DNA of 64,000 bases from a virus. How positions within the stretch are numbered: position 1 is the first letter of the stretch; each line of letters begins with the position of its first letter. The position numbers and the translations under genes were made by a program. The DNA lies in IMG/VR virus record IMGVR_UViG_3300032156_000001, positions 96,001 to 160,000 of that record; one strand, written 5' to 3'. This document shows positions 17,215-46,731 of this stretch, in pieces. The notes beneath the pieces are model-generated. The model was not told the origin of the DNA, did not search any database, and was given only the letters and a program-made list of their open reading frames with translations.

Positions 17215-17897
17215 ACGCCGTCGTGACGGTCTGCATCGGCGACTTCTTCAGGCGGATCGCCAGGTTGACGCACCCGCCGATGCGGAAGTACGCCGAGCGG
17301 CTCGGCGCCGACTTCGTGGTCCTCGACAGGATGCTGACCGCCGAGAAGTACCCGCACTACGAGAAGTTCCGCATCCGCGACCTGCTGGACGACTACGCCA
17401 GGGCCGCCTACATCGACACGGACGCGCTCGTGCGGAACGACTGCCCCGACCTGTTCGCCGAGGTCCCGCCGGCAAAGCTGGGCGCGTTCCCGGAAGGCAG
17501 CCACGTCGACAGGACCGCGGCCGTGAAGCTGGCCTGCGAACAGTACGGATTGGAGTATGCCAGGTTCAGGGACAAGCCATACTTCAACACCGGCGTCATG
17601 GTGGTGTCGCGCTGCCACGCCAGGGCGTTCGTGAAGCCCGCGGTGGAGGTGCGCGACTTCTGGGAGCAGTCCTACCTGAACCTGCGGTTCGTCATCGAGG
17701 ACGTCGAGATGCACGAACTGTCCCACAGGTTCAACCGGCTGCCCGCCTTCGACTACGCGTCGGCCAAATGCTGCGTCCCCATCGACGAGCCCCGCCTGGA
17801 CAGTTGGATCGTGCACCACGCGGGCGGGATCAAGGCGGGCGTCATCAGCCGCATCGCCTGCGACCTGGCGGCGTGGCGCGCCCGCGGCCTCGCGTAG
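17211..17897 (+). CDS. Glycosyltransferase, GT-A fold (GT8-like), paralog of 15398
   Basis: IDTD, YFNTGVMVVS, EQSYLNL, IVHHAGG; ATGA start-stop overlap. Confidence 0.8.
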   Translation: MNAVVTVCIGDFFRRIARLTHPPMRKYAERLGADFVVLDRMLTAEKYPHYEKFRIRDLLDDYARAAYIDTDALVRNDCPDLFAEVPPAKLGAFPEGSHVDRTAAVKLACEQYGLEYARFRDKPYFNTGVMVVSRCHARAFVKPAVEVRDFWEQSYLNLRFVIEDVEMHELSHRFNRLPAFDYASAKCCVPIDEPRLDSWIVHHAGGIKAGVISRIACDLAAWRARGLA

Positions 17898-17926
17898 TTG
17901 ACTGCCCGCCCCTTCCGACCGATAAT
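17898..17926 (+). promoter_or_regulatory. Sigma70-like promoter
   Basis: TTGACT-N17-GATAAT upstream of the metacaspase gene. Confidence 0.65.
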
Positions 17927-17968
17927 GGCCCTATGAAGGGGGAACGGCCAATGGCGGAGGAAAAACCC

Positions 17969-18784
17969 ATGCGAAAAGCCCTTCTTGTTGGCATCAACCA
18001 GTACAGCGCGCCGTACGCGCTGCAGGGCTGCGTCAACGACGTCATGGCGATGCGCAGCCTGCTGCGCGACTACCTGGGCTTCCCGGCGTCGGGCATCCTG
18101 ATCCTGAAGGACAAGCAGGCGACCACGAGGAACATCCTGAACGGCCTGAGGTGGCTGGCCAACATCAACGCCGGCGGCATCGCCCTGTTCCACTATTCCG
18201 GTCACGGCGCGCAGGTGCTCACCAGCGACCCCGGCGAGCCGGACGGATTGGCCGAGTGCATCTGCCCGGTCGACTTCAACTGGACGCCGCAGCGCATGAT
18301 CACCGACAAGCAGCTTGTCGCGGCGCTGGCGTTGCTGCCGTCCACCGCGGCTACGAACTGGTTGTCGGATTCCTGCCATGCGGGAGGACTGGACGAGACC
18401 GACCGCGGCGCCAAATCGCTCGCGACCGACAAGCGGACCCTGCGGCACATGATACTGCCGCCTGCCATGGCCGCCGAGGTGGAGCGCCTGAGGAAGAAGA
18501 AAAAGACCAAGGTGCGGACGATGGCGAAGTCGCTGAAGGCGGCGGAACTGGCCGTAGGCTTCATGGCGGCCTGCAGGGCCAACCAGACGGCGTCCGACAC
18601 GTACGAGGACGGTCGGTGGTGCGGCGCGTTCACGTGGGCGTTCCTGAAGGCCGTGAAGGCCAATACCCGCGCGGCGCTGACCGACCTCTGCGCGACCACG
18701 CGTTCGACCCTGTCGAAGGCGCGCTACTCGCAGGCCCCGCAGGTGGAAGGCACGAGGATCGACAAGCCGTTCCTGTCCTGGTGA
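17969..18784 (+). CDS. Caspase-family protease (peptidase C14, metacaspase-like)
   Basis: RKALLVGINQY, L.GCVNDV, HYSGHG (catalytic His), DSCH (catalytic Cys), AAC...Q.A.D, GAFT; GGAGG RBS at 17956. Confidence 0.9.
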   Translation: MRKALLVGINQYSAPYALQGCVNDVMAMRSLLRDYLGFPASGILILKDKQATTRNILNGLRWLANINAGGIALFHYSGHGAQVLTSDPGEPDGLAECICPVDFNWTPQRMITDKQLVAALALLPSTAATNWLSDSCHAGGLDETDRGAKSLATDKRTLRHMILPPAMAAEVERLRKKKKTKVRTMAKSLKAAELAVGFMAACRANQTASDTYEDGRWCGAFTWAFLKAVKANTRAALTDLCATTRSTLSKARYSQAPQVEGTRIDKPFLSW

Positions 18785-21764: not shown

Positions 21765-24700
21765 ATGCCCGACAGCGACCTTCCGCTCGGCCTCCCGGCC
21801 GCCCAGCCGCTCCAGTTGCGCCGCTTCGACGACCACCACGCCGCGCGCGTCAATATCCTGAACGGCGTCGTGTCGGCGCTGCAGGAGAAGTATCCCGTCG
21901 AGAACGAGCGGTACAGGTTGGAGCTTTCCGGCCTGCACTACAAGCAGCCCAACAGCTACTCGCTGGAGGAGCAGAAGAAGGCGATCATCCACGGCGACTC
22001 GCTGCACGCCAAGCTGCACGGCACGTGGGCGCTGATTGACAAGGCCAGCGGCAAGCCGGTAGACACCAAGGAGACCGTCGTGGCGCACGTGCCGTGGCTG
22101 ACCGAGCGCGGCACGCTCATCCACAACGGGTCCGAGTATTTAATAAGTTCGCAATTCCGTTTGAAGCCCGGCGTCTACTCGCGCATGAAGGACAACGGCA
22201 TCCTGGAGGCCCACGTCAACGTGAAGCCCGGGACCGGGCCGTCCTTCCGCGTCTACATGGAGCCGGAGACCGGCGTGTTCCGCATGGCGGTCGGGCAGTC
22301 CACGCTGAAGCTCTACCCGATCCTGCGATCCATGGGCGTGTCCGACAAGGAGCTGCGCGACGCCTGGGGCGAGGAGCTGCTGCACAAGAACGTCGAGGCC
22401 GAGGACCCGCGCGCGGTAGGCCGCGCGTTCGCGAAGCTGGTCGAGAAGCCCGTCGAGGAAGGGCACCCGACGATCGTGTCTGCCGCGATGCCGGAGCTGC
22501 CGAAGGCGGCCAGCGAGACGCCCGAGACGGTCAAGAAGCTGCAGAAGATCGTCGATGCGCACAAACTTAAAGGCGGATATGGCGACGTTGCCTGGGACGA
22601 GGAGACCGGCGAGACCCACCTGTCCGTCGGCGACTGGCACGAGCAGGAAGACTATGCCGGGCTTGAGAAGGCCATCAAGGCCGTCCCGGGCGTGAAGAAG
22701 TTCCAGGTCGAGGCGGAAATAGGTCCGCCCGACGGCTGGTGGGCCGTCAACCACGGTCGTGAGCCGAAGATCTGGCACAAGCCGAAGCCGCGCGATCCCG
22801 AGCAGGAAGCCGCATTCATGGCCAGCCTCGACGGGCCGCCGCTCAAGATTGTCGGGCAGACGCTCAAGGAGGCCCAGGCGCCGATCGGCCAGAAGACCAC
22901 GGACCGCAAGTGGAAGTACCTGTGGTTCCACGGCGAGCTGTACACGAACCCGCCCGACAAGGAGCACCCGGATCCGTGGGTGCTGCTGAAGGTCCACAAG
23001 GGCCTGCCGCAGGCCGCCTATGCCACGCTGAAGGGCGAGGGCGTCGACTGCGAGCCGCACTACGACGACCCGCACGTCTCCGTCCTGCGCGGCGAGGAAG
23101 TCCGCGAGCTCATAAAGAAGTATGGCGACCAGTGGCAAGGCGCGGCCAAGATCGGTCAGAAGATGCGCTTCCGCCTGAGCAAGATCGTCAGCCTCGTGCC
23201 GGGCGGCTGGCCGGAGATGGACCGCGTGTGGTTCATCGAGGTAGAGTCGCCCGAGCTGGAGGAGTACCGGAAGGACCTCGGCTTCCGCAATCTGCCGCTC
23301 CAGCCGAAGACTGGCAACGAGGTCAGGTTCCATGTCACTTTCGCCGTGAAGCCGAACGTCGCGAGCAAGGCCGCCGCGGCGCTGACCGAGCCGCCCGAGG
23401 AAGGGGCGACGGCGCCGGCGGTCAAGCCGCCCGGCGAGGAAGGCCGGAAGATCCTGCACGCGCTCCAGCAGATGGAGCTCGACCCCGACGTCACGGAGTC
23501 GACGCTAGGCGAGCGGCACGTGAACGTGACGCCGAAGATGATGGTCCGGGCGACAAAGAAGCTGCTGGGCATCCAGAAGGGGACCGAGGAGACCGACGAC
23601 CGCGACTCGCTGGCCTACCAGACGCTGCACTCGCCGGAGGACTTCTTCGCGGAGCGGATCAGGCGCGATGCCGGCGGGCTGGGCAGGCGGATGCTGTGGC
23701 ACGCGACCAGGAAGGGCAACCTCGACTACGTCCAGAGCGGCGCGCTGACGCCGCAGATGCACGCCGTCCTGCTGAGCAGCGGGCTGGCCGCCGCGGCCGA
23801 GGAAACGAACCCGCTCGAGCTGGCCGATCAGCATCATCGCGTCGTGCGCACGGGCGAGGGAGGGATGTCGTGTTATTCGGAAGATACCGAAGTGCTAACG
23901 ATAGAAGGATGGAAACACTGGGGAACCGTCGTCGCTGCTGACGAACTTGCCTGTCGGGTGAACGGTCGGTTGGAGTTCCACCGACCGACGCGTCTTTTTA
24001 GCGGCGCATATCGCGGAAAGCTCTTATCTGCCGATACCCGGGTGATCAACTACGCGGTTACTCCGGATCATAGGGTGTTCGTGTCTTGGGATACGACGAC
24101 GGCCGGCCACGAATCGGTTCGGTCTCCGTTCCGGTTTCGGCCGGCTTTCGATATCCACGGCAAAAGAGTGCGGCATTTGGTTTCCGCTGAACCGTATCTG
24201 GGTGGCAGCCGGCCGGACAAACACGTTTTGCCGCCTGCGCCCGTTGACCGGGAAAACGCAGGATCCGCGAGAAGAGAGGCACTAGAGCTTGATTTTCTGG
24301 ACTGGGTGGAGTTCCTCGGTTGCTACCTGGCTGACGGCAGTTTCAGGTACGATGGCGACCGGCACGAATACCGAACGGAAGTTGGGAAAGTCCGATCATT
24401 GAATCCTGGCGAATACGCTACGATTGACGCCGTTTTGCGCCGATTGGGATTCACTTACAGATATGAGCAGAATCGTCGGTTTATCGTTCACGGGAAACAT
24501 CTGGCACACTACTTGTCGAAGTTTGGTAAAGCATGGACGAAGTACGTGCCGGAATACGTGATGCGCGGCGATATAGAAACGCGAAAGCGTTTCTTCTTTG
24601 CCATAACGACGATGGATCACACGGCGGCGTGCCCTGGACTGTCCTTCAAATATATGTCCGCTTCACCTAAGCTGGCCGAGCAGGTGGCTTGGCTGGCTGT

Positions 24701-27700
24701 TTCTCTCGGATACGCAGTTCACTACCTGACTCGCGTCAACCACAACAGGACCAATCCGATACATGTCATTCATATTTCTGAAGCCTCGGAAAGTCTCGTC
24801 TATCGGCAACACGCCGGCTTGCAGTATCGTGAACTTGATTATGCTGGAACGGTCTATTGCGCGTCTGTTCCTGGGGAGCTGGTATTTATACGTAGACACG
24901 GAAAAACGATGTGGTGTGGCAACTCCTTAGATGCAGTCCCCGAGGAGGCCAGGGTGGTGCAGCCGTCCCACTTCGGCTTCGTCGATCCGAGCCGCGCGCC
25001 CGAATCTGCAAGAATGGGTTTGGACAGCAGGATCGCCCACGGCGCGCTGCGCGGCAGCGACGGCCAGGTCCATGCGCCGATGCTGGACCTGAAGACCGGC
25101 AAGACCGAACTAGTGTCCGCGGCGCAGGCCGTCAAGAGCGTGGTCGCGTTCCCCGGCGAGATGGCCAGGACCGGCGCCACCGCCCGCGCCATGGTGCGCG
25201 GCAAGCGCATCGAGAACGTGCCGAAGGGCGAGGTGGACTTCGAGCTGCCCCACCACGCGCACATGTTCTCCGGGGTGACGAACCTCGTCCCCATGGCCGG
25301 CGCGCTGAAGGGCGGCCGGCTCATGATGGGCGCGAAGTTCTTCAGCCAGGCGCTGCCGCTCCAGCACAGCGAGGCGCCGCTGGTCCAGAACCTGTCGCCG
25401 GACGGCCGCAGCTTCGACGAGATCATGGGCGAGAAGGTCGGCGCGGTGCGGGCGGCCAAGCGCGGCGTCGTTATCGGCATCGACAAGAACAAGGTCCTCG
25501 TCCGCGAGGAGGGCGGCGGCAAGCGCGAGTACCCGCTGTACGACAACTTCGTCTTCAACAGGCGCACCGCGATCCACAACACGCCCGCCGTCGGCATCGG
25601 CGAGACGGTCGAGCCGGGCGCGCTGCTGGCCAGGAGCAACTATACGGACGCCAAGGGCGACACGGCGGTCGGGCTGAACTTGCGGACCGCGTACATGCCG
25701 TTCAAGGGCCTGAACTACGAGGACGCCGTCGTCATCAGCGAGAGCGCCGCCCAGCGGCTCAGCTCCGAGCACATGTTCCAGCGGACGCTCGAGAAGGACG
25801 ACCGCGACATGGAGTTCGGCAAGAAGCCGTTCATGTCGGTCTTCCCGGCCAAGTACGTCAAGGACCAGCTGGGCCGGATGGACGAGCACGGCGTGGTCAG
25901 ACCCGGGACCGTCGTGAAGAAGGGCGACCCGCTGATCCTCGGCATGGAGAAGACGCGGTTCACGCACACGCACCGCGGCCACAAGCCCATCTACACCGAC
26001 GCGTCGGAGACGTGGGACCACGAGGCGGACGGCACCGTCACGGACGTGTCGCCCACCAAGGGCGGCGGCTGGAACGTCACCGTGAAGACGTACCTGCCGG
26101 CGCAGACGGGCGACAAGCTGGCCGCGCGGTTCGGCGACAAGGGCGTCATCTCCGAGGTGATGCCGGACCACCAAATGCCGCACGACTCGCAGGGCAGGCC
26201 CATCGAGCTGTGCCTGAACCCGCTGGGGGTCATCAGCCGCGGCAACCCCGCGCAGGTCTACGAGGCGCTGCTGGGCAAGATCGCCCGGAAGACCGGGCGC
26301 GCGTACGTGGTGCCGTCCTTCCGAAACGGCAGCTGGATCGACTTCGTCCAGGGCGAGCTGCGCAAGAACGGCCTGAGCGACACGGAGGACCTGACCGACC
26401 CCTCGACGGGGACGAAGATCCCCGGCGTCCTGACCGGCGAGCGCTTCATGATGAAGCTGCACCATACCGCCGAGTCGAAGGGCAAGGGCAGGGACGTCGG
26501 CAGCTACACGTCGGAGGGGCTGCCCGCCATAGGGAGCAAGCGGATAGGCCAGATGGAGACCAGCGCGCTGGTCTCGCACAACGTCATGGACGTGCTCAAG
26601 GACGCCAAGCTGGTCCGCGGCCAGAGGAACGACGACTACTGGCGCGAGTTCCGCATGGGCAACGTGCCCGCGTCGCCGCAGACGCCGCTGGTCTACAGGA
26701 AGTTCCTGGCCAGCCTCACGGGCGCCGGCATCAACGTGAAGAAGGAGGGCAACAAGCTCAACCTGTTCGCCCTGACGGACAAGGACGTCGACAAGCTCAG
26801 CGCCGGCGAGGTCAAGGCCCCGCATACCGTCGCCGGCAACGATCTCGCGGAGATAGAGGGCGGCCTGTTCGACAAGGGGCTAACGGGCGGGCATGGCGGT
26901 TCGCGGTGGAGCCACGTGAATCTCGACGAGCCGACGCCCAACCCCGTCATGGAGGAGCCCACTCGCAGGCTGCTCGGCATGACGCAGAAGCAGTTCGAGG
27001 CGGCCATCTCGGCGCGCGGCGGCCAGGGGATCAAGGACGCGCTCTCGAAGATGGACGTGGACCGCGAGATCACTCGGTACGAGGACGAGGTCAAGACGGG
27101 CGCGCGGTCGCGGCGCGATAACGCCGTGAAGTGCCTCGGCTATCTTGAGGCCATGCGGACGCAGGGTTACAAGCCGGAAGAGCTGGTGATGTCGAAGGTC
27201 CCCGTCCTGCCGCCGGGCATGCGCCCCATCGTCCCGTTCCAGGGCAGGCCGCTGGTGTCGGACCCGAACTATCTGTACCGCGACCTGATGCACGCGAACC
27301 AGGATCTGAAGGACGCGAAGGGCGAGCTCGGCGCGGAGCGCGCCGGCGCAGAGCGGCTACGGCTGTACAACGCCTTCAAGGCGGTGACCGGCCTGGGCGA
27401 CCCCGTGCAGGCGAAGACCCGCGAGGCCAACGTGCGCGGCCTGCTGGCGCACGTGTTCGGGACCGGCGGACCCAAGACTTCGATGTTCCAGCGTCGTGTC
27501 CTCAGCACGCCGGTGGACGTGGTCGGGCGCGCGGTCATCACGCCGAACCCGCAGCTGTCGATGGACCAGGTCGGCCTGCCCGAGGAGAAGGCCTGGACGA
27601 TCTACAGACCGTTCATAACCCGCAGGCTGATCCGGCGCGGCATGCCCGCCACCGAGGCCGCGCGCGCCGTGGCGGACAGGCACCCCACGGCGAAGAACGC

Positions 27701-28139
27701 GCTGCTGGAGGAGATGCAGGCCCGGCCCGTCCTCATCAACCGCGCGCCGACGCTGCACAAGTACGGCTTCATGGCGGCGTGGCCGACGCTGGTGAAGGGC
27801 GACACGCTGCAGATCTCGCCGGTGGTGACGCCGGGCTTCGGCGCGGACTTCGACGGCGACGCGATGAACTACCACGTGCCGGTGTCCGACGCCGCCGTCC
27901 GCGAGGCCAAGGAGAAGATGCTGCCGTCGGCGAACTTGCGCGACGTCCGCGGGTTCAAGCTGCACTACCTGCCTCGACACGAGTTCCTGCTTGGGCTATA
28001 CTTGGCCAGCACGGCGGACAACCGCAACGAGCCGCGGTCGTTCCGCACGAGACAGGACGCGCTGCGCGCCTACCGCCGCGGCGAGCTCGGGCTTGGCGAC
28101 CGCGTGGCCACGCTGGACGAAGGGGAGAAGAAGAAATGA
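21765..28139 (+). CDS. Multi-subunit RNA polymerase: fused beta + beta' N-terminal half, with intein and inserted domains
   Basis: Beta motifs: GTLIHNGSEYLISSQ, GLNLRTAYMPFKGLNYEDA, GDKLAARFGDKGVIS, LNPLGVISRGN, MMKLHH, KRIGQME. Beta' motifs: GEVKAPHTV, VPVLPPGMRP, VDVVGRAVIT, LINRAPTLH, catalytic GADFDGD (27840-27860). Confidence 0.95.
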   Translation: MPDSDLPLGLPAAQPLQLRRFDDHHAARVNILNGVVSALQEKYPVENERYRLELSGLHYKQPNSYSLEEQKKAIIHGDSLHAKLHGTWALIDKASGKPVDTKETVVAHVPWLTERGTLIHNGSEYLISSQFRLKPGVYSRMKDNGILEAHVNVKPGTGPSFRVYMEPETGVFRMAVGQSTLKLYPILRSMGVSDKELRDAWGEELLHKNVEAEDPRAVGRAFAKLVEKPVEEGHPTIVSAAMPELPKAASETPETVKKLQKIVDAHKLKGGYGDVAWDEETGETHLSVGDWHEQEDYAGLEKAIKAVPGVKKFQVEAEIGPPDGWWAVNHGREPKIWHKPKPRDPEQEAAFMASLDGPPLKIVGQTLKEAQAPIGQKTTDRKWKYLWFHGELYTNPPDKEHPDPWVLLKVHKGLPQAAYATLKGEGVDCEPHYDDPHVSVLRGEEVRELIKKYGDQWQGAAKIGQKMRFRLSKIVSLVPGGWPEMDRVWFIEVESPELEEYRKDLGFRNLPLQPKTGNEVRFHVTFAVKPNVASKAAAALTEPPEEGATAPAVKPPGEEGRKILHALQQMELDPDVTESTLGERHVNVTPKMMVRATKKLLGIQKGTEETDDRDSLAYQTLHSPEDFFAERIRRDAGGLGRRMLWHATRKGNLDYVQSGALTPQMHAVLLSSGLAAAAEETNPLELADQHHRVVRTGEGGMSCYSEDTEVLTIEGWKHWGTVVAADELACRVNGRLEFHRPTRLFSGAYRGKLLSADTRVINYAVTPDHRVFVSWDTTTAGHESVRSPFRFRPAFDIHGKRVRHLVSAEPYLGGSRPDKHVLPPAPVDRENAGSARREALELDFLDWVEFLGCYLADGSFRYDGDRHEYRTEVGKVRSLNPGEYATIDAVLRRLGFTYRYEQNRRFIVHGKHLAHYLSKFGKAWTKYVPEYVMRGDIETRKRFFFAITTMDHTAACPGLSFKYMSASPKLAEQVAWLAVSLGYAVHYLTRVNHNRTNPIHVIHISEASESLVYRQHAGLQYRELDYAGTVYCASVPGELVFIRRHGKTMWCGNSLDAVPEEARVVQPSHFGFVDPSRAPESARMGLDSRIAHGALRGSDGQVHAPMLDLKTGKTELVSAAQAVKSVVAFPGEMARTGATARAMVRGKRIENVPKGEVDFELPHHAHMFSGVTNLVPMAGALKGGRLMMGAKFFSQALPLQHSEAPLVQNLSPDGRSFDEIMGEKVGAVRAAKRGVVIGIDKNKVLVREEGGGKREYPLYDNFVFNRRTAIHNTPAVGIGETVEPGALLARSNYTDAKGDTAVGLNLRTAYMPFKGLNYEDAVVISESAAQRLSSEHMFQRTLEKDDRDMEFGKKPFMSVFPAKYVKDQLGRMDEHGVVRPGTVVKKGDPLILGMEKTRFTHTHRGHKPIYTDASETWDHEADGTVTDVSPTKGGGWNVTVKTYLPAQTGDKLAARFGDKGVISEVMPDHQMPHDSQGRPIELCLNPLGVISRGNPAQVYEALLGKIARKTGRAYVVPSFRNGSWIDFVQGELRKNGLSDTEDLTDPSTGTKIPGVLTGERFMMKLHHTAESKGKGRDVGSYTSEGLPAIGSKRIGQMETSALVSHNVMDVLKDAKLVRGQRNDDYWREFRMGNVPASPQTPLVYRKFLASLTGAGINVKKEGNKLNLFALTDKDVDKLSAGEVKAPHTVAGNDLAEIEGGLFDKGLTGGHGGSRWSHVNLDEPTPNPVMEEPTRRLLGMTQKQFEAAISARGGQGIKDALSKMDVDREITRYEDEVKTGARSRRDNAVKCLGYLEAMRTQGYKPEELVMSKVPVLPPGMRPIVPFQGRPLVSDPNYLYRDLMHANQDLKDAKGELGAERAGAERLRLYNAFKAVTGLGDPVQAKTREANVRGLLAHVFGTGGPKTSMFQRRVLSTPVDVVGRAVITPNPQLSMDQVGLPEEKAWTIYRPFITRRLIRRGMPATEAARAVADRHPTAKNALLEEMQARPVLINRAPTLHKYGFMAAWPTLVKGDTLQISPVVTPGFGADFDGDAMNYHVPVSDAAVREAKEKMLPSANLRDVRGFKLHYLPRHEFLLGLYLASTADNRNEPRSFRTRQDALRAYRRGELGLGDRVATLDEGEKKK
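22900..23360 (+). other. 2H-phosphoesterase-like domain inserted in the RNAP beta moiety (approximate bounds)
   Basis: Two HxS/T motifs: PHVSV (~23070) and FHVTF (~23328), about 86 aa apart. Confidence 0.7.
23871..24923 (+). mobile_element. Intein (351 aa) with LAGLIDADG-type homing endonuclease
   Basis: Starts CYSEDTEVLT, ends RRHGKTMWCGN followed by Ser; FLGCYLADGSF block; visibly lower GC; removal restores the GEGGMS-SLDAVPEEAR..PSHFG beta motif. Confidence 0.92.
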
Positions 28140-29029
28140 GCCAGGATCTTGCTACCTTGAAGCTCGTCATGGAGACCGTGGCGGAGGTCCAGCGGCGCTG
28201 GGAGAAGCGGGGCTTCGTCCCGCTCGATTCCTCCGGCATGATGGTGCAGCCGCAGCAGCAGATGGATCCCTCGATGGGCGGGATGCCCGGCGGGCAGCCG
28301 CCGGGAGCTCCTCCGGGGCCCATGCCCCCCGGCGGCGCGCCCCCGCCCGGCGCGGGCGGAATGCCCCCGGGAGCGCCACCGGAAGCCGGTGGAATGCCGC
28401 CGGAAGCCGGCGGCGCTGCTCCCGGTGGGGCTCCTCCCGGCCAGCCCGTCATGGTCAGCCTGAACGACCTGATCCAGCTGTTCCAGATGATCGTCCAGCA
28501 GCTCGGCGGCGCGGCTGCCCCTGGCGGGGCGGCCGCCCCGGCGCAGGCCCCCGCGGAAGCGCCCAAGAAGGGCAAGGTCGCCGTGGAAGAACAGCTGGCG
28601 CAACTGAACGCGAAGCTCGATCAGCTGCTCGGCGCGCTGGGCGGCGGCTCCGCTCCGGCTCCCGCTCCCACCGGGGGCCCTCCTGCTGCCGCCCCCGCCG
28701 AGCCGACGCAGGCCGGCCCCGTCGCGCCCGCGGCGCCGATGCAGGTCCAGGCCAGCGCGATCGGCAAGCCGGAAGAGGACCCCGGCGAGCCGCCTTCGCT
28801 GTCCGACCCGATCAAGACGGCCGAGATCCCGACGAGCGGCCCGGCGAACCCCGCGCTTGGCGCGGCGACCCCGGCCGCCGCAGTTCCTCCGCCGGCGCTT
28901 CCCCCGCCGGCCTCGATGCAGCCGCCCACCGCTGTCGCCATGCAGCAGCCGGCAGGTGGGCTGGCGGGTGCCAAGGCGCAGTCGATGGCCAAGAGGATAA
29001 CCGAACTGAGAGGAGCGCCCAAGAAGTGA
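28136..29029 (+). CDS. Pro/Gly/Ala-rich hypothetical protein
   Basis: ATGA overlap with the RNAP stop; frame of track ORF 27779..29029. Confidence 0.75.
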   Translation: MSQDLATLKLVMETVAEVQRRWEKRGFVPLDSSGMMVQPQQQMDPSMGGMPGGQPPGAPPGPMPPGGAPPPGAGGMPPGAPPEAGGMPPEAGGAAPGGAPPGQPVMVSLNDLIQLFQMIVQQLGGAAAPGGAAAPAQAPAEAPKKGKVAVEEQLAQLNAKLDQLLGALGGGSAPAPAPTGGPPAAAPAEPTQAGPVAPAAPMQVQASAIGKPEEDPGEPPSLSDPIKTAEIPTSGPANPALGAATPAAAVPPPALPPPASMQPPTAVAMQQPAGGLAGAKAQSMAKRITELRGAPKK

Positions 29030-29253
29030 AGGTGCGCGTGCAGTCAGGCGACATGAGCTCCGTGGAGTTGGAGGACGCCCGCAGCGCGGTGGTCATAGAC
29101 GACCACGGGCAGCCGATCGTGCTGGTGCAGTCGATGGCGCCTGGCCAAGTCCTGGTAGCGCGGGCGTCGGACCCGAACTTCAGGAAGCAGATCGAGGCGC
29201 TCGGCATAGGGTTGCGAGCCGATTTCGAGGTGCGAAAGGGCCATGCGAGCTGA
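29026..29253 (+). CDS. Hypothetical protein (75 aa)
   Basis: GTGA coupling; AGGAG upstream; globular-looking sequence VKVRVQSGD. Confidence 0.6.
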   Translation: MKVRVQSGDMSSVELEDARSAVVIDDHGQPIVLVQSMAPGQVLVARASDPNFRKQIEALGIGLRADFEVRKGHAS

Positions 29254-32341: not shown

Positions 32342-32345
32342 CTGA

Positions 32346-34190
32346 ATGCTCACGACGGTCGGACAGCTTCTGGTCAACGAGGAGCTCCCCCCGGGGCTGC
32401 GCGACCATTCGCGCGTCCTCGACCAGGCCGGCGTGGCCAAGCTGTTCGGCGAGATAGAGAAGGCCGACAAGGGCAAGTTCGCCGACATCAACAGGCGGCT
32501 GCACGACATCGGCCAGCTGGTGTCCACCAGGCAGGGCCGCGAGACGAGCCTGTCGCTGGACGCCCTGCGCCCTTCCAAGGGCGTCGCCGACGAGCGCGCC
32601 AAGCTGGACCGCGAGGTGAAACTGATCCTGGCCGGCCCGGGCGACACGGCGGAGAAGCACAGGAAGATCGTCGAGGCCATCGCCGGCAAGGCCGACAGGA
32701 TCACCGAGCTGAACTACCAGGAAGGCCTGAAGGACCGCAACCCGTTCGCGCTGCAAATCCTGTCGGGCAGCCGCGGCAACAAGGTACAGTTCAGGACGCT
32801 GCGCGCGGGCGACCTGTTGGTAACCGATCACAGGGATGAGCCCGTGCCGGTGCCAATGCTGTCGTCCTACGCTGAGGGGCTCGACCCGGTGCAGTATTGG
32901 GCGGGAGCGTATGGCGCCCGCCGAAGCGAGATTTTGAAAAAGTTCTCCACCCCGAAGGCCGGCTACCTCGGCAAGCAGCTCGCCATGGCGGCGCACAGGC
33001 TCGTCGTGACGGAGAAGGACTGCGGCACTTCCACCGGCGTGCCGGCGACGGCCGACGATCCCGACAACGAGGGTGCCGTCCTGGCAACCGACGCGGCCGG
33101 CATCCGGGCCGGGACGGTGCTGACGCCGGACATCATGCGGAAGCTGGGGGACAAGAAGATCCTCGTCAGGTCGGCGCTGACCTGCCAGGCGGAGCGCGGC
33201 CTGTGCGGCAAGTGCGCTGGCGTACGCGAGACAGGCGCGCTGCCGTCGATCGGCTCGCATATCGGCATCGCGGCGGCGCACGCGCTTTCAGAGCCGTTGT
33301 CACAGGGGTCTCTGGGCGCGAAACATTTGGGCGGGACCGTCTCCTCCGGCCAGAGATCGAAGGACGACGCGCTCGACGTGGTCAACAGGCTGGTCCAAGT
33401 GCCGGAGGCGTTCCCCGGCGCGGCGGCGGTCGCTACCAACGACGGCCGCGTGGAGCGCGTCGAGGATGCGCCGCAGGGCGGCACGACGGTCGTCATAGGC
33501 GGCAAGGAGCACTGGGCGGCGCCGGGCCAGAAGATCATGGTGAAGAAGAACGACGAAGTCGAAGCTGGCGACGTCATCAGCGACGGCATGCCTAATCCCG
33601 CCGACATCGTGAAGCACAAGGGCATCGGCGAGGGCAGGCGCTACTTCACGGACCTGTTCAGGAAGACGCTGGCGCAGCACGGATTCAAGCAGAACAGGCG
33701 GAACGTGGAGCTGGTGGCCCGCGGCCTGATCAACCACGTGCGCATCACGGGGCTGCACGGGCCGAACCACACCGTCATGGACGACCTGGTGGAGTTCGAC
33801 CCGCTCATGCGCGGCTACGAGCCCAGGGAGGGCAGCGTTTCCGTCACGCCGAAGGAAGCCAGGGGTTTCTTTCTGGAAAGGCCCGTGCTACATTACTCGG
33901 TGGGCACGCGGATCACGCCGCGGATGGCGGCGGAGCTGCACGGGAACGGCGTCAAGAGCGTCACGGCGCACCGTGAGCCGCCGCCGTTCGAGCCGGAGAT
34001 GGTGCGGGCGGTCGAAACGATGGCGCACGCGGACGACTGGATGCTGCGGCTGGGAGGCCTGTACGGCATCCAGCGCAGCTTCTTGAAGTCCGTCCACCGC
34101 GGCGGCACCTCCGATCCGACGGGGACGTCCTACATCCCGGCGCTGGCGGAGGGCACCGGCCTGCGGGGGTTGGAAGACGAGGAGGATTAG
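32346..34190 (+). CDS. RNA polymerase beta' C-terminal half
   Basis: TTVGQLL start, SGSRGN, bridge helix YGARR...AGYL, VVTEKDCGT, Zn site VRSALTC...LCGKCAG, trigger loop GIAAAHALSEPLSQ...KHLGG. Confidence 0.93.
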   Translation: MLTTVGQLLVNEELPPGLRDHSRVLDQAGVAKLFGEIEKADKGKFADINRRLHDIGQLVSTRQGRETSLSLDALRPSKGVADERAKLDREVKLILAGPGDTAEKHRKIVEAIAGKADRITELNYQEGLKDRNPFALQILSGSRGNKVQFRTLRAGDLLVTDHRDEPVPVPMLSSYAEGLDPVQYWAGAYGARRSEILKKFSTPKAGYLGKQLAMAAHRLVVTEKDCGTSTGVPATADDPDNEGAVLATDAAGIRAGTVLTPDIMRKLGDKKILVRSALTCQAERGLCGKCAGVRETGALPSIGSHIGIAAAHALSEPLSQGSLGAKHLGGTVSSGQRSKDDALDVVNRLVQVPEAFPGAAAVATNDGRVERVEDAPQGGTTVVIGGKEHWAAPGQKIMVKKNDEVEAGDVISDGMPNPADIVKHKGIGEGRRYFTDLFRKTLAQHGFKQNRRNVELVARGLINHVRITGLHGPNHTVMDDLVEFDPLMRGYEPREGSVSVTPKEARGFFLERPVLHYSVGTRITPRMAAELHGNGVKSVTAHREPPPFEPEMVRAVETMAHADDWMLRLGGLYGIQRSFLKSVHRGGTSDPTGTSYIPALAEGTGLRGLEDEED

Positions 34191-40411: not shown

Positions 40412-41175
40412 TGATCAAGCCGGCGGCGGTGCTGCCATCGTTCCTGTCGCAGACGCTGGGCCACGCCGCGCTGGGCGGGCTGGCCGCCGGCGCGTTGAGC
40501 AGCCACGACCGGCTGGTCGCGGTGCTGCGCGGCGCGCTGACGGGCGCCGGCGGCGGGTTCCTGGGATCGGCGGCGGGGCTGGTCCCACTGGGCGCGGGCA
40601 GGCTCGCGACCGGCACCGTGGCGGAGCACATACCGTACATGCAGGCCGGCGGCCTGATAGGAAGCGTGGCCGGCGGCGCGTACGGCCGGTCGCGCAAGCC
40701 CGAGGAGGCCGCGGAGGAGAAGAAGGCCGGGATCGCTCCCGTGGCATTGGGTTTGGGCCTGGGCGGCATCCTTGGCGGGACGGCCGGTTACAGGGCGACC
40801 GGGCAGGATACCTGGAACCGTTTGACGCCGAAGCAGAAACTGGCGGTGATCCTGCGCAGCAGCCTTCTCGGTGCCGCCGGCGCCGGCGCCTTGGGAGTCG
40901 CCGGCGCCGGCGCCGGCGGCCGAATAGGAACTTACAGGCTGCGCGGCGCGCTCGACACGCGCGTGAAGGAGCTGGAGAAGGCGCTCGACACGGGCGGGCC
41001 GCTGCCGCCCAAGCCCGATGTAAGGGCGTTGGCCGGCCTGGTGCGCACCCCCGCGTTGATGGGAATGGCCGCCGGCGGGCTAACTGGAGGCGTCCTGGGC
41101 GGTCTGTTCGGCAGGGCGGGCGGCAAGGCGCGCGGCGGCAGGCGGCGCGCGATGGAGCAGGACGAAGATGTATAA
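40411..41175 (+). CDS. Gly-zipper membrane-like protein
   Basis: TAATG coupling; several GxxxGxxxG hydrophobic helices. Confidence 0.7.
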   Translation: MIKPAAVLPSFLSQTLGHAALGGLAAGALSSHDRLVAVLRGALTGAGGGFLGSAAGLVPLGAGRLATGTVAEHIPYMQAGGLIGSVAGGAYGRSRKPEEAAEEKKAGIAPVALGLGLGGILGGTAGYRATGQDTWNRLTPKQKLAVILRSSLLGAAGAGALGVAGAGAGGRIGTYRLRGALDTRVKELEKALDTGGPLPPKPDVRALAGLVRTPALMGMAAGGLTGGVLGGLFGRAGGKARGGRRRAMEQDEDV

Positions 41176-42646
41176 GGTCATCCCGCACGGCTCGTTCGAT
41201 TTCGGCATGCCGGCCGCCCGGCTGGTGGACCTGCACCGCGGCGGCGTGGACTCGGCGTGGCTGGAGAAGCGCGCGGCCGTCCTGACGCGGGAGATCGCCG
41301 AGCTGAGGCCGCGGCCGGGGCACAGCTACGTCCACCTGATCTCGCTGGGCTCCATGGAGCACTACGGCTGCAACAGGAACGGCGACGCGTTCCCGTACAA
41401 GAGCGCTACGTACGAGCTGCCCATGCCGAAGGGCGGTCAGAAGCTCATCAAGCTCGCCGACGGCCTGTCCAGGATGCACGCGACCTTCATGCAGGGGCAC
41501 GTCTTCAAGCATCACCAGAACGACAACCCCGAGAAGTCGATCGGCAAGATCGCCGCCGAGGCGTACAACCCCGAGATGCACCGCGGCGAGCTGATCATCG
41601 AGGTGCCGCACGGGAAGGAGTGGGACGACGACCTGCAGAAACTGGCGAGCGGCCAGGACATCGCCTTCTCGATGAGTATGCGCGAGCCGCACGACACGTG
41701 CAGCGCATGCGGCAACCAGGCGACGTCGCGGGCGAGGTACTGCGACCACCTGCGCGACCACATGACGGAGATACTCAAGAGCGGCCACCAAGTGTTCGCC
41801 ATCAACGACGTAGGCTCTTTTTTCGATATCAGCAAGGTGATGCGCCCCGCCGACAGGATCGCGTTCTCGCTGAGGAAGGTTGCCGAGCTGCTCGCGGTGG
41901 GCGGGGCCGCCCTTGCCGAGGAGCTCGGGATGATCGACGCCGCGGGCTCGCCCCGCAGCGTCCCAGCCGCAATGTCGCGGAAGGTCGCGGCGGCCGAAAA
42001 GCTGTCCGCGATGGAGAAGCGGGTCGGTGCCGCCGCGCGCGGAGAGGACAACACGGAGCTGTTGCAGCAGGCGCGCGGTTGCCCGTCGCGGGAGCTCAAC
42101 GACGACGAGATTTCCGGGCTGAAGAGCGCGCGGCTCGGCCCGGTGCTCGGCGCGTTGGCCGACGCGAAGATCTGCCTCTCGGTCCGCGATTTCGCGCGGC
42201 TGGTGCAGGGGCCGAGTCGCGGCCCCTCGGACGGCGACATCGGCTTGGTCGAGCGGATGCTGCCGGACCTGCATTCCCGCCTGTCCGACGGGGATGCGCA
42301 AAGCTGCGCCGCTGACGGGTCGTACGACTCCGACGAGGGGTCGGCCGGTCCTCTCGGCGCCTCGATTCCGCGGCACGTGCGCGACTTGATCGGCCGGCTG
42401 ATGGACGACCATTCGTTGGCCGAGGGCCCGGTCCGGCGGAGGATCACGATCGTCACGATCCGCGGCCTGAAGCCGGAGACGGCCCAGCCGGAAAAGTCGA
42501 AGGTTGCCGTGGACTCGACTTCGGCATATACTCTCGCTCGGGAGTATGCGAAGTACCGGCTCGCCTTTCTGGCCAAGCAGGGAGCCGACGCTGAGCGATG
42601 TGCCTTGTTGACAGTCCTGCGCGGCTGCGTTAGATTCGTGCCGTGA
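41168..42646 (+). CDS. Putative prohead maturation protease
   Basis: Position before the scaffold and capsid genes; NRNGDAF, VFKHHQN (candidate His), FSMSM (candidate Ser), CSACG...CDH metal site. Confidence 0.6.
   Translation: MYKVIPHGSFDFGMPAARLVDLHRGGVDSAWLEKRAAVLTREIAELRPRPGHSYVHLISLGSMEHYGCNRNGDAFPYKSATYELPMPKGGQKLIKLADGLSRMHATFMQGHVFKHHQNDNPEKSIGKIAAEAYNPEMHRGELIIEVPHGKEWDDDLQKLASGQDIAFSMSMREPHDTCSACGNQATSRARYCDHLRDHMTEILKSGHQVFAINDVGSFFDISKVMRPADRIAFSLRKVAELLAVGGAALAEELGMIDAAGSPRSVPAAMSRKVAAAEKLSAMEKRVGAAARGEDNTELLQQARGCPSRELNDDEISGLKSARLGPVLGALADAKICLSVRDFARLVQGPSRGPSDGDIGLVERMLPDLHSRLSDGDAQSCAADGSYDSDEGSAGPLGASIPRHVRDLIGRLMDDHSLAEGPVRRRITIVTIRGLKPETAQPEKSKVAVDSTSAYTLAREYAKYRLAFLAKQGADAERCALLTVLRGCVRFVP
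42608..42636 (+). promoter_or_regulatory. Sigma70-like promoter for the scaffold/capsid operon
   Basis: TTGACA-N17-TAGATT; GAGGAGG RBS before ATG 42693. Confidence 0.65.
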
Positions 42647-45732: not shown

Positions 45733-45801
45733 GAAACTGGCGCCGGTCCAGCCACCAAGGGCGGCCCGGCTTGGGAAGGCTTGGAAGAGAGGGTCACTGA
45801 G

Positions 45802-46731
45802 ATGGAACCGACCACGGAACTGCTGAATCGGGCCGTCATAGACCGGCTCACCTCGGACGATCCCGGGATGGTGAAGGAAGCCGTCACGGCGATCAACGAG
45901 TACACGCGGGTGAAGCTGCGCGAAGACGGCTTCCTGAGGCGGGTGCTCCCGCCCCTGACGATCACGGAGTTCGACCGGCAGGTCGACACCGACAAGCCGG
46001 TCAAGGTCGTGGACAAGGAACCGGACTCCCCGGCCGCGATCAGCGTGCCGTTCGGCTCCTCGCCCATGAACCGGTACATCCGCGGGCCCCGCTACCGCGT
46101 GATGTTCGACCGGATCCTCACGCCGAAGTTCACCAAGGACGTCGTCGAGCTGATGACCTGGCACATGGACATCCGCCAGATCCTCAGCGACAACGCCATC
46201 AAGGACATGATGGCCGAGGAGGACAACAAGTTCCTCCTGGCGGTCAACACCGTCCTGGTGGCCCCCGGCAGCGTCCTGCCCGACACGGGCATCGCGCAGT
46301 GGGTCACGCTCAGCGGCGGAGTGACCAGGGACACGCTGGCTGCGGCCATGCAGGTCCTCCCGGGCAGCTTCCAGCGCTTGGTCGCGGCCACGGTGCTGGT
46401 CAACCAGATCACCATCTGGGAGTTCGTGAAGTGGGGCCGCGACGAGGTCGGCGGCGACGACGCGCAGGCCACGCTGCGCCAGGGCTTCCAGGAACGCGAG
46501 CTCATGGGGGTCCGCTTCATCGTCACGATCAAGTGGGACCTGGTCCCGACGAACACGATCTTCCTGTTCGCCGAGCCGAAGTTCCTCGGCAAGCTGTACA
46601 TGATCGAGGACGTCACGATGTACGTGAACAAGCGGGCGTTCATGCTCGAGTTCTTCGCGTACGAGTGCCTCGGCGGGGCGATCGGGAACGTGGCCGCGGT
46701 CGGCCGCGTGGACTTCACGACCGAGACGTAG
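45802..46731 (+). CDS. Putative major capsid protein
   Basis: 309 aa, very strong codon bias; position after protease, scaffold and decoration genes; followed by a strong hairpin. Confidence 0.7.
   Translation: MEPTTELLNRAVIDRLTSDDPGMVKEAVTAINEYTRVKLREDGFLRRVLPPLTITEFDRQVDTDKPVKVVDKEPDSPAAISVPFGSSPMNRYIRGPRYRVMFDRILTPKFTKDVVELMTWHMDIRQILSDNAIKDMMAEEDNKFLLAVNTVLVAPGSVLPDTGIAQWVTLSGGVTRDTLAAAMQVLPGSFQRLVAATVLVNQITIWEFVKWGRDEVGGDDAQATLRQGFQERELMGVRFIVTIKWDLVPTNTIFLFAEPKFLGKLYMIEDVTMYVNKRAFMLEFFAYECLGGAIGNVAAVGRVDFTTET

What the first reader, a model, noticed from the sequence alone, without database searches (positions are those of the whole stretch)
22500..23375. 2H-phosphoesterase-like domain inserted inside RNAP beta and bracketed by KxA motifs
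Seen: a ~290-aa insertion holds a small domain plus a domain with two HxS/T motifs (PHVSV, FHVTF). It is delimited by PKAAS (K at 22503), LKEAQ (22866) and SKAAA (23367). Established: 2H phosphoesterases include LigT-type RNA-processing enzymes and the phage anti-CBASS nuclease Acb1, which degrades cyclic oligonucleotides. Inference: the phage may carry an anti-defence or RNA-end-repair enzyme into the cell inside its polymerase. If KxA is the maturation site, the domain would be excised in the head and delivered at infection, ahead of gene expression.
Basis: partly seen in the sequence, partly recalled or inferred. Interest (0 to 1): 0.85.

Follow-up and report, generated by a model that had tools for sequence, protein, structure and literature searches.

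The report
Phosphodiesterase cargo domain inside phage RNA polymerase
An uncultured 188-kb phage carries an intact 2H phosphoesterase, a relative of enzymes that destroy bacterial immune signals or trim RNA ends, spliced into a surface loop of its own RNA polymerase, probably so that the enzyme enters the host with the polymerase; whether it is then cut free is not shown.

Summary
ORF 21765-28139 (+, 2124 aa) is a phage RNA polymerase chain: beta fused to the N-half of beta'. About 310 extra residues (aa ~240-558) sit in a beta-lobe loop.

- **2H domain:** the second half of the insert passes Pfam 2H-SAK (PF22547) and keeps both HxS/T motifs. Its model has pLDDT 92. In an unbiased search of 48,161 PDB chains the top 19 matches are all 2H phosphoesterases.
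- **Family:** it is not an Acb1 or LigT member by sequence.
- **Distribution:** 69 of the 124 closest polymerase homologues carry the domain. They form one clade (62 of 67 leaves), with a few losses.
- **Neighbouring modules:** relatives hold SET, GNAT, InPase, DUF5661 or LNS2 modules, apparently in the same part of the chain. This is the published phage "polyvalent protein" repertoire.
- **Virion link:** the nearest cultured relative, Salmonella phage Arash, has this polymerase as its most-detected virion protein, so delivery at infection is plausible.
- **K-x-A:** the three sites are real but are not enriched in this protein (11 seen, 11.8 expected). In homologues the two sites flanking the 2H domain are conserved, as parts of longer motifs. 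Beta is split as a gene only on the N side. Excision remains unproven (about 0.3).

The scan made a similar finding on another genome (e1-5676227).

The parts
21765..28139 (+). RNAP chain of 2124 aa: beta fused to the N-half of beta', ending just after the catalytic DFDGD (aa 2028)
   Evidence: Pfam Rpb2_6, Rpb1_1 and Rpb1_2. It is the only beta and beta' N-half in the genome. It is 33% identical to Arash gp206.
22482..23438 (+). Insertion of about 310 aa (aa ~240-558) in a beta-lobe loop, after the GEPPT-like motif
   Evidence: Query aa 32-242 and 588-701 align to residues 27-238 and 276-394 of beta chain 8gzg_C. Insertion-free homologues bridge the gap with ~25-35 aa.
22503..22511 (+). K247-A-A, the first K-x-A, in a stretch modelled as disordered (L-P-K-A-A-S)
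   Evidence: Model residues 1-10 have pLDDT below 50.
22518..22754 (+). Small alpha/beta (ferredoxin-like) domain, aa ~252-330; a mobile module of unknown function
   Evidence: pLDDT ~80-90. VIA Z 7-8 to T3SS ring-building and MamM C-terminal domains, a generic fold. Also found in P0002, P0024, P0082 and P0127. Absent or replaced in most homologues.
22866..22913 (+). Conserved linear motif K-x-A-x-(I-G-A-R)-x-S-D-R-K-W leading into the 2H domain (here KEAQAPIGQKTTDRKW); low-confidence structure
   Evidence: pLDDT 59-68. About 17 homologues start their polypeptide 1-35 residues before it.
22926..23357 (+). 2H-SAK phosphoesterase core, aa 388-531
   Evidence: PF22547 over its cut-off. Model pLDDT 91.9, pTM 0.81. 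The top 19 of 48,161 PDB representatives are all 2H enzymes.
23073..23084 (+). First catalytic motif H437-V-S-V
   Evidence: His invariant in 68 sequences. Kept in 67 of 69 RNAP-borne copies.
23331..23342 (+). Second catalytic motif H523-V-T-F
   Evidence: His invariant and Thr nearly invariant.
23358..23387 (+). C-terminal helix holding K535-A-A (homologues: K-x-A-x-E-L-L/F, often followed by K-R-A-A)
   Evidence: Helix at model residues 167-175, pLDDT ~79-93. K-x-A is present in 67 of 67 homologues against 40% in shuffles.
23385..23450 (+). Pro/Glu/Gly/Ala-rich tether leading back into the beta lobe
   Evidence: Sequence; falling pLDDT at the end of the model.
23871..24923 (+). Intein of ~351 aa with a LAGLIDADG-type core, inserted at the GEGGMS|C junction and ending ...CGN|S
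   Evidence: Homologues join P0001 aa 701/702 directly to 1053/1054. GC 0.54 and GC3 0.57, against 0.66-0.70 and 0.93-0.95 in the exteins.
32346..34190 (+). beta' C-half gene (Rpb1_5)
41168..42646 (+). Candidate prohead protease (weak evidence)
   Evidence: phrog_18299 'head maturation protease', E 9.7e-4. The nearest Atlas clusters that carry a family name include Peptidase S77, S78 and S80, score 0.91-0.92, which is a lead only. No Pfam hit.
45781..46731 (+). Major head protein candidate; places the RNAP genes next to the head module
   Evidence: phrog_2522, E 1e-5.

Best explanation
Shown: a catalytically intact 2H-SAK phosphoesterase sits in a surface loop of the beta lobe of the phage's only multisubunit RNA polymerase. 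It is joined to the lobe by low-complexity tethers. It was acquired once in this polymerase lineage, has been kept over deep divergence, and was lost cleanly in a few lines, so it is an accessory passenger and not part of the polymerase machinery. Relatives hold other enzyme modules (SET, GNAT, InPase, LNS2, DUF5661, LigT-like), apparently in the same part of the chain, and these belong to the 'polyvalent protein' effector repertoire. Inferred: the polymerase is packaged in the virion, as its homologue in phage Arash appears to be. The 2H enzyme would then reach the cytoplasm with the DNA, before any phage gene is expressed. There it would hydrolyse a phosphodiester substrate, most likely cyclic or 2'-5'-linked oligonucleotide immune signals, or else RNA 3' ends or 2',3'-cyclic phosphates. 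I judge that it most likely stays joined to the C-terminal beta fragment. The chain may be broken on its N side, by a gene split in relatives and possibly by proteolysis here.
For: - **Domain identity:** PF22547 passes its gathering score. Both His are invariant across 68 sequences. The model has pLDDT 91.9. The top 19 matches among 48,161 PDB representatives are all 2H enzymes: poxvirus cGAMP PDE Z 6.6, phage BCSR5 PDE 6.5, MHV ns2 6.3, Usb1 6.3, CPDase 6.2, Acb1 5.8.
- **Insertion site:** it lies between blocks that align to residues 27-238 and 276-394 of a minimal beta.
- **Passenger status:** 69 of 124 homologues carry it. They form one clade, 62 of 67 leaves, support 0.92, and five nested members lack it. 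P0214 and P0211 close the gap with ~25 aa.
- **Age:** its codon usage matches the host gene, GC3 0.93.
- **Swappable modules:** precomputed Pfam lists for relatives include PF00856, PF18905, PF18823, PF24694, GNAT families and PF02834. SET lies directly upstream of the 2H in P0005-P0007. Free-standing 2H-SAK proteins pair with InPase, SET and DUF5661, as described for virion-injected polyvalent proteins (PMC5512222, section 20).
- **Virion link:** Arash gp206 and gp216 are among the most abundant virion MS proteins (PMC10585845). Here the RNAP genes lie beside the protease-like and capsid genes.
- **No ligase partner:** no RtcB or Rnl-type ligase was found.
- **Attachment to beta-C:** the polypeptide starts at the 2H domain in about 17 homologues, and no homologue seen ends right after it.
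Against: - No activity or substrate has been tested, and the structural Z-scores (5-7) are individually modest.
- Virion packaging is inferred from a relative that is only 33% identical, and the Arash authors themselves note possible carry-over of abundant proteins.
- The portal gene here lies about 50 kb away, not next to the RNAP as in Arash.
- The domain's stable retention next to beta-C could equally mean a role in transcription itself.
- Strict conservation of K-x-A on the C flank (67 of 67) would fit release by a protease, which this statement does not assume.
- The contexts of free-standing 2H-SAK genes that I fetched gave no direct head-module link.
Confidence: 0.6

Rival explanations
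1. Excised cargo. The head-maturation protease cuts at the K-x-A motifs, so that a free ~170-aa 2H enzyme, or the whole insert, is released in the capsid and injected, while the two beta fragments stay assembled.
For: K-x-A, with the middle residue free, is present in the C flank of 67 of 67 homologues (40% in shuffles) and in the N flank of 61% (73% if K-x-[AG] is counted; 25% in shuffles). The N-side motif lies in a low-confidence, probably exposed stretch. A chain break there is tolerated, because about 17 homologues encode it as a gene split. K-x-A is mildly enriched in the head-module proteins of this genome: 89 seen against 66-68 expected, z 2.8-3.2, with Leu 3.5-fold enriched at position -2. 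That pattern recalls the T4 gp21 L/I-x-E sites. A protease-like ORF lies nearby. Unchecked notes from other genomes of this scan argue the same.
Against: There is no direct evidence of cutting. K-x-A is not enriched in this protein (11 against 11.8) and ranks only 8th among X-x-Y pairs in the head module. Both flank motifs are parts of longer conserved motifs. The C-side one is an amphipathic helix (K-x-A-x-E-L-L/F) modelled with pLDDT ~79-93, which is a poor protease substrate and is explicable by packing. Split genes keep K-x-A only 1-5 residues after their Met, where there is almost nothing to remove. No gene split was seen on the C side. The L-x-K-x-A pattern is also what amphipathic helices give.
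Confidence: 0.3
2. Built-in transcription accessory. The 2H domain stays on the polymerase and acts in cis on the phage's own RNA, for example by trimming 3' ends or leaving or opening 2',3'-cyclic phosphates as Usb1 does. It would not be an anti-defence enzyme.
For: It is always contiguous with the beta C-fragment and has been retained across a whole polymerase clade. Usb1 is among the best structural matches. Iyer et al. favour an RNase role as one of two options.
Against: The beta lobe faces downstream DNA, not the RNA exit (established RNAP architecture, not tested here). Long flexible tethers and clean losses argue for a dispensable passenger. The neighbouring modules in relatives (SET, GNAT, InPase) are effector-type enzymes, not RNA-processing domains.
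Confidence: 0.25
3. RNA-healing enzyme. The domain opens the 2',3'-cyclic phosphate ends made by host anticodon nucleases so that a ligase can reseal tRNA (the LigT or T4 Pnkp logic).
For: This is classical 2H chemistry. CPDase and 2'-5' RNA ligase folds are among the matches. The genome carries other RNA-quality-control genes according to unchecked notes (Ro60, tmRNA).
Against: No RtcB or Rnl-type ligase is found in the ~90%-complete genome. There is no hit to LigT Pfam families at E<=1. Iyer et al. never saw polyvalent-type 2H domains associated with ligases.
Confidence: 0.1
4. Inactive structural spacer: a decayed 2H fold used only as a lineage-specific bulge of the beta lobe.
For: Lineage-specific insertions in the beta lobe are common in cellular RNAPs (established knowledge).
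Against: Both HxS/T motifs are kept in 67 of 69 copies, and the two exceptions are a fragment and a partial match. His72 and His158 of the domain are invariant over 68 sequences that include distant free-standing enzymes.
Confidence: 0.03

Closest known systems
2H domains of phage polyvalent proteins (Iyer, Burroughs, Anand, de Souza, Aravind 2017, PMC5512222); Pfam PF22547 2H-SAK
   Same: Same domain family by Pfam score. Same partner modules in relatives (InPase, SET, DUF5661). Same proposed logic of an enzyme carried in with the DNA, and the same lack of an RNA-ligase partner.
   Different: There the carrier is a MuF or portal-linked multidomain protein, often with its own processing peptidase. 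Here the carrier is the beta subunit of a multisubunit RNAP, the domain is an internal insertion in a lobe loop, and no peptidase domain is present in the chain.
Acb1 anti-CBASS nuclease (phage T4/FBB1; PDB 7t26, 7t27; Pfam PF23474)
   Same: 2H fold with two HxT/S motifs. Structural match Z 5.8-7.3 over 108-110 residues. A phage enzyme that could act on cyclic oligonucleotides.
   Different: No sequence-level membership: no PF23474 hit at E<=1. Acb1 is a free-standing protein, by published accounts recalled from my own knowledge. Substrate untested here.
Virion-packaged phage RNA polymerases: Salmonella phage Arash gp206/gp216, phiKZ-type virion RNAPs, N4 vRNAP
   Same: A polymerase carried in the particle for immediate early transcription. 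Arash gp206 is a true homologue (33% identity, the same beta-beta'N fusion).
   Different: Arash and the Vibrio phages D69, D148 and D181 lack the insertion. phiKZ-type enzymes are split differently. N4 vRNAP is a single-subunit enzyme.
Lineage-specific sequence insertions of bacterial RNAP beta (for example the E. coli beta SI1/SI2 insertions)
   Same: A large, dispensable insertion in a surface loop of beta that leaves the core fold intact.
   Different: The bacterial insertions are non-enzymatic domains (recalled from published work, not tested here). This one is an enzyme with a conserved active site, flanked by flexible tethers.
Multimeric-RNAP-encoding Caudovirales, mReC (Weinheimer and Aylward 2020, PMC7481178)
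   Same: Uncultured large phages that encode cellular-type beta and beta' subunits; probably the same broad lineage.
   Different: Membership was not tested here. The main text of that paper has no occurrence of insertion, phosphoesterase, intein or virion.

Membership tests
2H phosphoesterase superfamily | Two H-x-S/T motifs, each followed by a hydrophobic residue | tested here: met
   HVSV at aa 437-440 and HVTF at aa 523-526. Both His are invariant in 68 aligned sequences.
2H phosphoesterase superfamily | Two-lobed alpha+beta 2H fold | tested here: met
   Model pLDDT 91.9. The top 19 of 48,161 PDB representatives are all 2H enzymes, Z 4.5-6.6, 100-126 residues aligned, rmsd 3.6-5.5. Foldseek E-values alone are weak, 4e-3 at best.
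Pfam PF22547 2H-SAK | Score over the curated gathering cut-off (27 bits) | tested here: met
   27.3 bits in the whole protein, 31.0 to 32.8 bits on the insert alone. 32.8 bits in the six-frame genome search.
Acb1 family (PF23474) | Sequence membership in the family model | tested here: not met
   No PF23474 hit at E<=1 in hmmscan. It appears only as a more distant feature-space neighbour and as a fold match, Z 5.8-7.3.
Acb1 family (PF23474) | Hydrolysis of CBASS cyclic di- and tri-nucleotides | not testable with these tools
   Needs an enzyme assay.
LigT / 2'-5' RNA ligase families (PF02834, PF13563) | Sequence membership | tested here: not met
   No hit at E<=1 for this domain. A relative (P0161) has PF02834 on record and P0029 a sub-threshold PF13563 hit, which shows clan-level kinship only.
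RNA healing-and-sealing systems | A partner RNA ligase (RtcB or Rnl-type) in the same genome | tested here: not met
   No PF01139 or PF09414 match in the ~90%-complete genome. The missing 10% cannot be excluded.
Phage polyvalent proteins (Iyer et al. 2017) | Several unrelated effector domains in one polypeptide, varying between relatives | tested here: met
   Small alpha/beta domain plus 2H here. Relatives carry SET, GNAT, InPase, LNS2, DUF5661 and LigT-like modules.
Phage polyvalent proteins (Iyer et al. 2017) | Packaged in the virion and delivered with the DNA | tested here: inconclusive
   Shown only for the polymerase of phage Arash by virion MS. Here the only support is position next to head genes.
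Phage polyvalent proteins (Iyer et al. 2017) | Own processing peptidase domain (a metallopeptidase, 'MPTase') in the chain | tested here: not met
   No peptidase family among the Pfam hits of P0001. This feature is frequent in the family but is not stated to be universal.
Protease-matured head proteins (T4 gp21 / phiKZ gp175 type processing) | Experimentally mapped cleavage at a short consensus motif | not testable with these tools
   Indirect evidence only: conservation of K-x-A at both flanks, modest enrichment in the head module, and a weakly supported protease ORF.
mReC phages (Weinheimer and Aylward 2020) | Placement in the mReC RNAP, capsid and terminase clades | not tested
   Only the paper was read.

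The most novel reading that the evidence does not exclude
A surface loop of the beta lobe of this phage lineage's virion RNA polymerase serves as an exchangeable cargo slot. Different lineages load it with different host-directed enzymes (2H phosphodiesterase, SET, GNAT, InPase, phosphatase). A T4-like prohead protease with a new Lys-x-Ala specificity cuts them loose, so the polymerase doubles as the delivery vehicle for pre-made anti-defence enzymes.
Probability: 0.3. Interest if true: 0.8.

Novelty: new variant of a known kind. Interest (0 to 1): 0.62.

Why it matters
Cyclic-oligonucleotide immunity (CBASS, type III CRISPR and similar systems) is triggered early in infection, so an enzyme that is already present when the DNA enters would act before any phage-encoded inhibitor could be made. 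This would be a case of a cellular-type multisubunit RNA polymerase used as the chassis for such an enzyme. The clade of about 70 homologues with interchangeable modules gives a natural comparative series. It also shows that the beta lobe tolerates insertions of 300 to 700 residues and chain breaks, which is useful for RNAP engineering. It gives the uncharacterised 2H-SAK family (no solved relative by sequence) a concrete, testable setting. If the K-x-A sites prove to be cut, that would define a new specificity for phage head proteases.

Tried and rejected
- **Phage collection:** tblastn of the insert and megablast of the region against 50,697 phage records gave no match, so no cultured phage there carries the insert.
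- **PDB by sequence:** the 2H domain alone gave nothing relevant. The profile from alignment A2 was swamped by the polymerase parts of its rows.
- **Foldseek on PDB:** no match at E<=1e-3 for either model, although 2H enzymes lead the lists. I relied on VIA-align instead.
- **Other family libraries:** NCBIfam gave no family for the domain. PHROGs gave only an unnamed family.
- **Papers:** searches for 'Swiss Army Knife' with 2H or RNA repair, and for the phage BCSR5 phosphodiesterase, found nothing.
- **Contexts of free-standing relatives:** P0023, P0019, P0035 and P0028 lie on short or uninformative contigs, with no head-module link visible.
- **Names:** cluster look-ups gave no organism names.
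- **Insertion site:** I first thought it equalled E. coli beta SI1. The alignment puts it after the GEPPT-like motif instead, so I dropped that.
- **Caspase-like ORF 17768-18784:** it could be a Lys-specific protease for K-x-A. That was considered but not pursued, because only its Pfam identity was checked.
- **Recent transfer of the 2H segment:** rejected, because its GC3 equals that of the host gene.
- **Not done:** no complex prediction was run.
Full report
**What is there.** The window is part of a 188,118-bp viral contig estimated to be ~90% complete. It has high G+C and almost all genes are on the + strand. ORF 21765-28139 (+) encodes 2124 aa. Pfam finds Rpb2 domain 6, then Rpb1 domains 1 and 2, so beta is fused to the N-half of beta' and the chain ends just after DFDGD. 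Pfam also finds PF22547 '2H-SAK' at aa 434-531. The beta' C-half is a separate gene at 32346-34190. This is the only polymerase set in the genome. The coding frame is clear: GC3 is 0.85-0.93 in the insert, and the long minus-strand ORF over it is a shadow frame.

**It is an insertion.** Against solved beta subunits, aa 32-242 and 588-701 align to residues 27-238 and 276-394 of a minimal beta (8gzg_C). About 310 extra residues therefore sit in a beta-lobe loop, just after the GEPPT-like motif. Homologues without the insert close this gap with ~25-35 residues.

**Structure of the insert.** A model of aa 240-545 (pLDDT 82) shows four parts:
- a disordered start that holds K247-A-A;
- a small alpha/beta domain at aa ~252-330, with a generic ferredoxin-like fold (Z 7-8 to T3SS ring-building and MamM C-terminal domains);
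- a low-confidence linker;
- a well-modelled domain from aa ~388.

**The 2H domain.** Modelled alone on 68 aligned sequences, it reaches pLDDT 91.9 and pTM 0.81. Foldseek E-values are weak, 4e-3 at best, but its lists are led by 2H enzymes. VIA-align was run against 48,161 PDB representatives without any pre-filter. Its first 19 matches are all 2H phosphoesterases: penguinpox cGAMP PDE Z 6.6, Burkholderia phage BCSR5 PDE 6.5, MHV ns2 6.3, Usb1 6.3, CPDase 6.2, 2'-5' RNA ligase 6.1, CNPase 5.8, Acb1 5.8, rotavirus VP3, AKAP18 and ASCC1. Each Z is modest; the exclusivity of the list is what counts. The two catalytic His are invariant in the 68-sequence alignment, which includes distant free-standing proteins, and the Thr of the second motif is nearly invariant. 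By sequence the domain belongs to 2H-SAK only. It gives no hit to the Acb1 or LigT models at E<=1, none in NCBIfam and no solved relative.

**Relatives of the domain.** An exhaustive profile-free search found 440 proteins at E<=1e-3. Most are multidomain phage proteins with the 2H-SAK domain near the N-terminus, combined with InPase, SET, DUF5661 or homing-endonuclease domains. This is the 'polyvalent protein' repertoire of Iyer et al. 2017. Those authors note that such 2H domains never accompany RNA ligases. They propose either an RNase role or degradation of 2'-5' or cyclic nucleotide signals, with delivery from the phage head (PMC5512222). In line with this, the present genome has no RtcB or Rnl-type ligase.

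**Relatives of the polymerase.**
- Among the 124 closest beta-beta'N chains, 69 carry the domain. All but a fragment and a partial match keep both HxS/T motifs.
- On a tree of the conserved Rpb2-6 region, 62 of the 67 leaves of one clade (support 0.92) carry it. Five nested members lack it, and all 45 outgroup chains lack it.
- The simplest history is one gain, long retention and a few clean losses. The domain is therefore useful but not needed for polymerase function.
- What lies upstream of it varies: a SET domain (P0005-P0007), a Cys-rich module (P0010, P0011 and others), the small alpha/beta domain (this phage and P0002) or nothing (P0003).
- Further relatives have InPase, LNS2-type phosphatase, GNAT, DUF5661 or LigT-like families on record.
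- No cultured phage in the collection has the insert. Arash and Vibrio phages D69, D148 and D181 have the same fused polymerase without it.

**Is the polymerase in the virion?** In Arash, gp206 (33% identical) is the most-detected protein in purified particles (3516 spectra). The beta' subunit and a sigma factor are also detected. The authors caution that abundant proteins may be carried over (PMC10585845). Here the polymerase genes lie a few kb upstream of a protease-like ORF and a major-head-protein candidate. The portal homologue, however, is ~50 kb away. Packaging is therefore a reasonable inference, not a result.

**The K-x-A question in this genome.** In this protein alone the motif is unremarkable: 11 seen against 11.8 expected. 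In the head-module proteins it is mildly enriched:
- 89 seen against 66-68 expected, z 2.8-3.2;
- 8th among X-x-Y pairs under local shuffling;
- Leu is 3.5-fold enriched two residues before the Lys.

That pattern resembles T4-type L-x-E sites, but amphipathic helices give the same pattern.

**The K-x-A question in homologues.** The stronger evidence is comparative. K-x-A with a free middle residue occurs within 30 residues after the second catalytic motif in 67 of 67 homologues (40% in shuffles). It occurs just before the domain in 61% of them, or 73% if K-x-[AG] is counted (25% in shuffles). Both, however, belong to longer conserved motifs:
- N side: K-x-A-x-I-G-A-R-E-S-D-R-K-W, modelled with low confidence;
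- C side: K-x-A-x-E-L-L/F, often followed by K-R-A-A, which forms a helix modelled at pLDDT ~79-93.

**Gene splits.** About 17 homologues begin their polypeptide 1-35 residues before the N-side motif, several with only one to four residues between the Met and the Lys.
- For P0009 and P0189 the upstream gene holds the beta N-part plus ~700 further residues.
- For P0014 an HNH endonuclease gene lies between a 333-aa upstream gene (not examined) and the 2H gene.
- For P0185 the adjacent upstream gene showed no beta N-part.

A chain break on the N side is thus tolerated and has arisen repeatedly. No homologue that I saw is split on the C side. Retention of K-x-A right after the start codon, where almost nothing could be removed, suggests that the motif does something besides marking a cut, or in addition to it. 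I put excision at about 0.3. Unchecked notes from other genomes of this scan argue for a K-x-A protease code in this phage group. I treat them as leads, and my own statistics for this genome are weaker than those notes claim.

**Most likely mechanism.**
- Shown: an intact 2H-SAK enzyme inserted in the beta lobe, ancient in this lineage, dispensable for the polymerase, and accompanied in relatives by effector-type modules.
- Inferred: it rides into the cell on a packaged polymerase and hydrolyses a phosphodiester substrate at the very start of infection.
- The substrate is open. I favour immune signalling nucleotides slightly over RNA ends, because there is no ligase partner and the companion modules are effector-like.
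- A cis role in transcription is the main rival for function; excision is the main rival for form.

**Novelty.** 2H domains in injected polyvalent proteins, and virion-packaged phage polymerases, are both known. An enzymatic passenger inside a lobe loop of a multisubunit RNAP beta subunit, in a clade with apparently interchangeable modules, is not described in the papers I could read. The scan reached a similar reading on another genome (e1-5676227), so this is a further member of that pattern. I rate it a new variant of a known kind.

Noticed in passing
window 23871-24923 (+): Intein of ~351 aa with LAGLIDADG-type blocks, splitting the conserved GEGGMS|S... site of beta. It starts with Cys, contains a TPDH block, and ends ...CGN followed by Ser (no penultimate His). 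Its GC is 0.54 and GC3 0.57, against 0.93-0.95 in the exteins, so it looks recently acquired. Pfam did not call it.
   Followed up: partly
window 17768-18784 (+): Caspase-family (Peptidase_C14) ORF, Pfam E 5e-30, about 3 kb upstream of the polymerase. Metacaspase-type enzymes usually cut after Lys or Arg, so it is an alternative candidate for any Lys-directed processing. Its start overlaps ORF 17187-17897.
   Followed up: partly
window 28139-32345 (+): About 4.2 kb lies between the beta-beta'N gene and the beta' C-half gene. It holds a 1032-aa ORF (29243-32341) with no Pfam or PHROG match. Relatives (L010, L013) also have several unannotated genes in this gap.
   Followed up: no
window 32346-34190 (+), aa 357-412: Sub-threshold Peptidase_M23 hit (E 5e-4, 20.6 bits against a cut-off of 28.7) inside the beta' C-half protein. 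It may be a lineage-specific insert.
   Followed up: no
window 19105-47158, head-module proteins: Among 89 K-x-A sites, Leu is 3.5-fold enriched at position -2 (L-x-K-x-A), and Glu or Ser is enriched just after the Ala. L-x-K is the most enriched X-x-Y pair (z 3.9).
   Followed up: partly
P0211 and P0214 (2H-less relatives nested in the 2H clade): Their short replacement loop still reads ...E-[LV]-S-K-[TE]-A-E..., so a K-x-A remains where the insert was lost. Outgroup polymerases have no conserved K-x-A at that place.
   Followed up: partly
L010:6179-9004 and L014:3086-5995: In split-gene relatives the beta N-fragment carries ~700 extra C-terminal residues (DUF5661 in L010). These include a Gly/Ala-rich hydrophobic stretch and a basic tail before the stop codon.
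   Followed up: no
window 22518-22754 (+): The small alpha/beta domain recurs in unrelated large proteins: P0024 (1001 aa, 59% identical over 91 aa), P0082 (889 aa, with an LNS2-like region) and a 72-aa stand-alone protein, P0127. It is a second mobile module of unknown function.
   Followed up: partly
P0205, P0213, P0161, P0178, P0180 (homologous polymerases): The precomputed domain lists of these chains include GNAT acetyltransferase, InPase, LigT-like PF02834, or LNS2 with SET. Their exact positions in the chains were not mapped.
   Followed up: no
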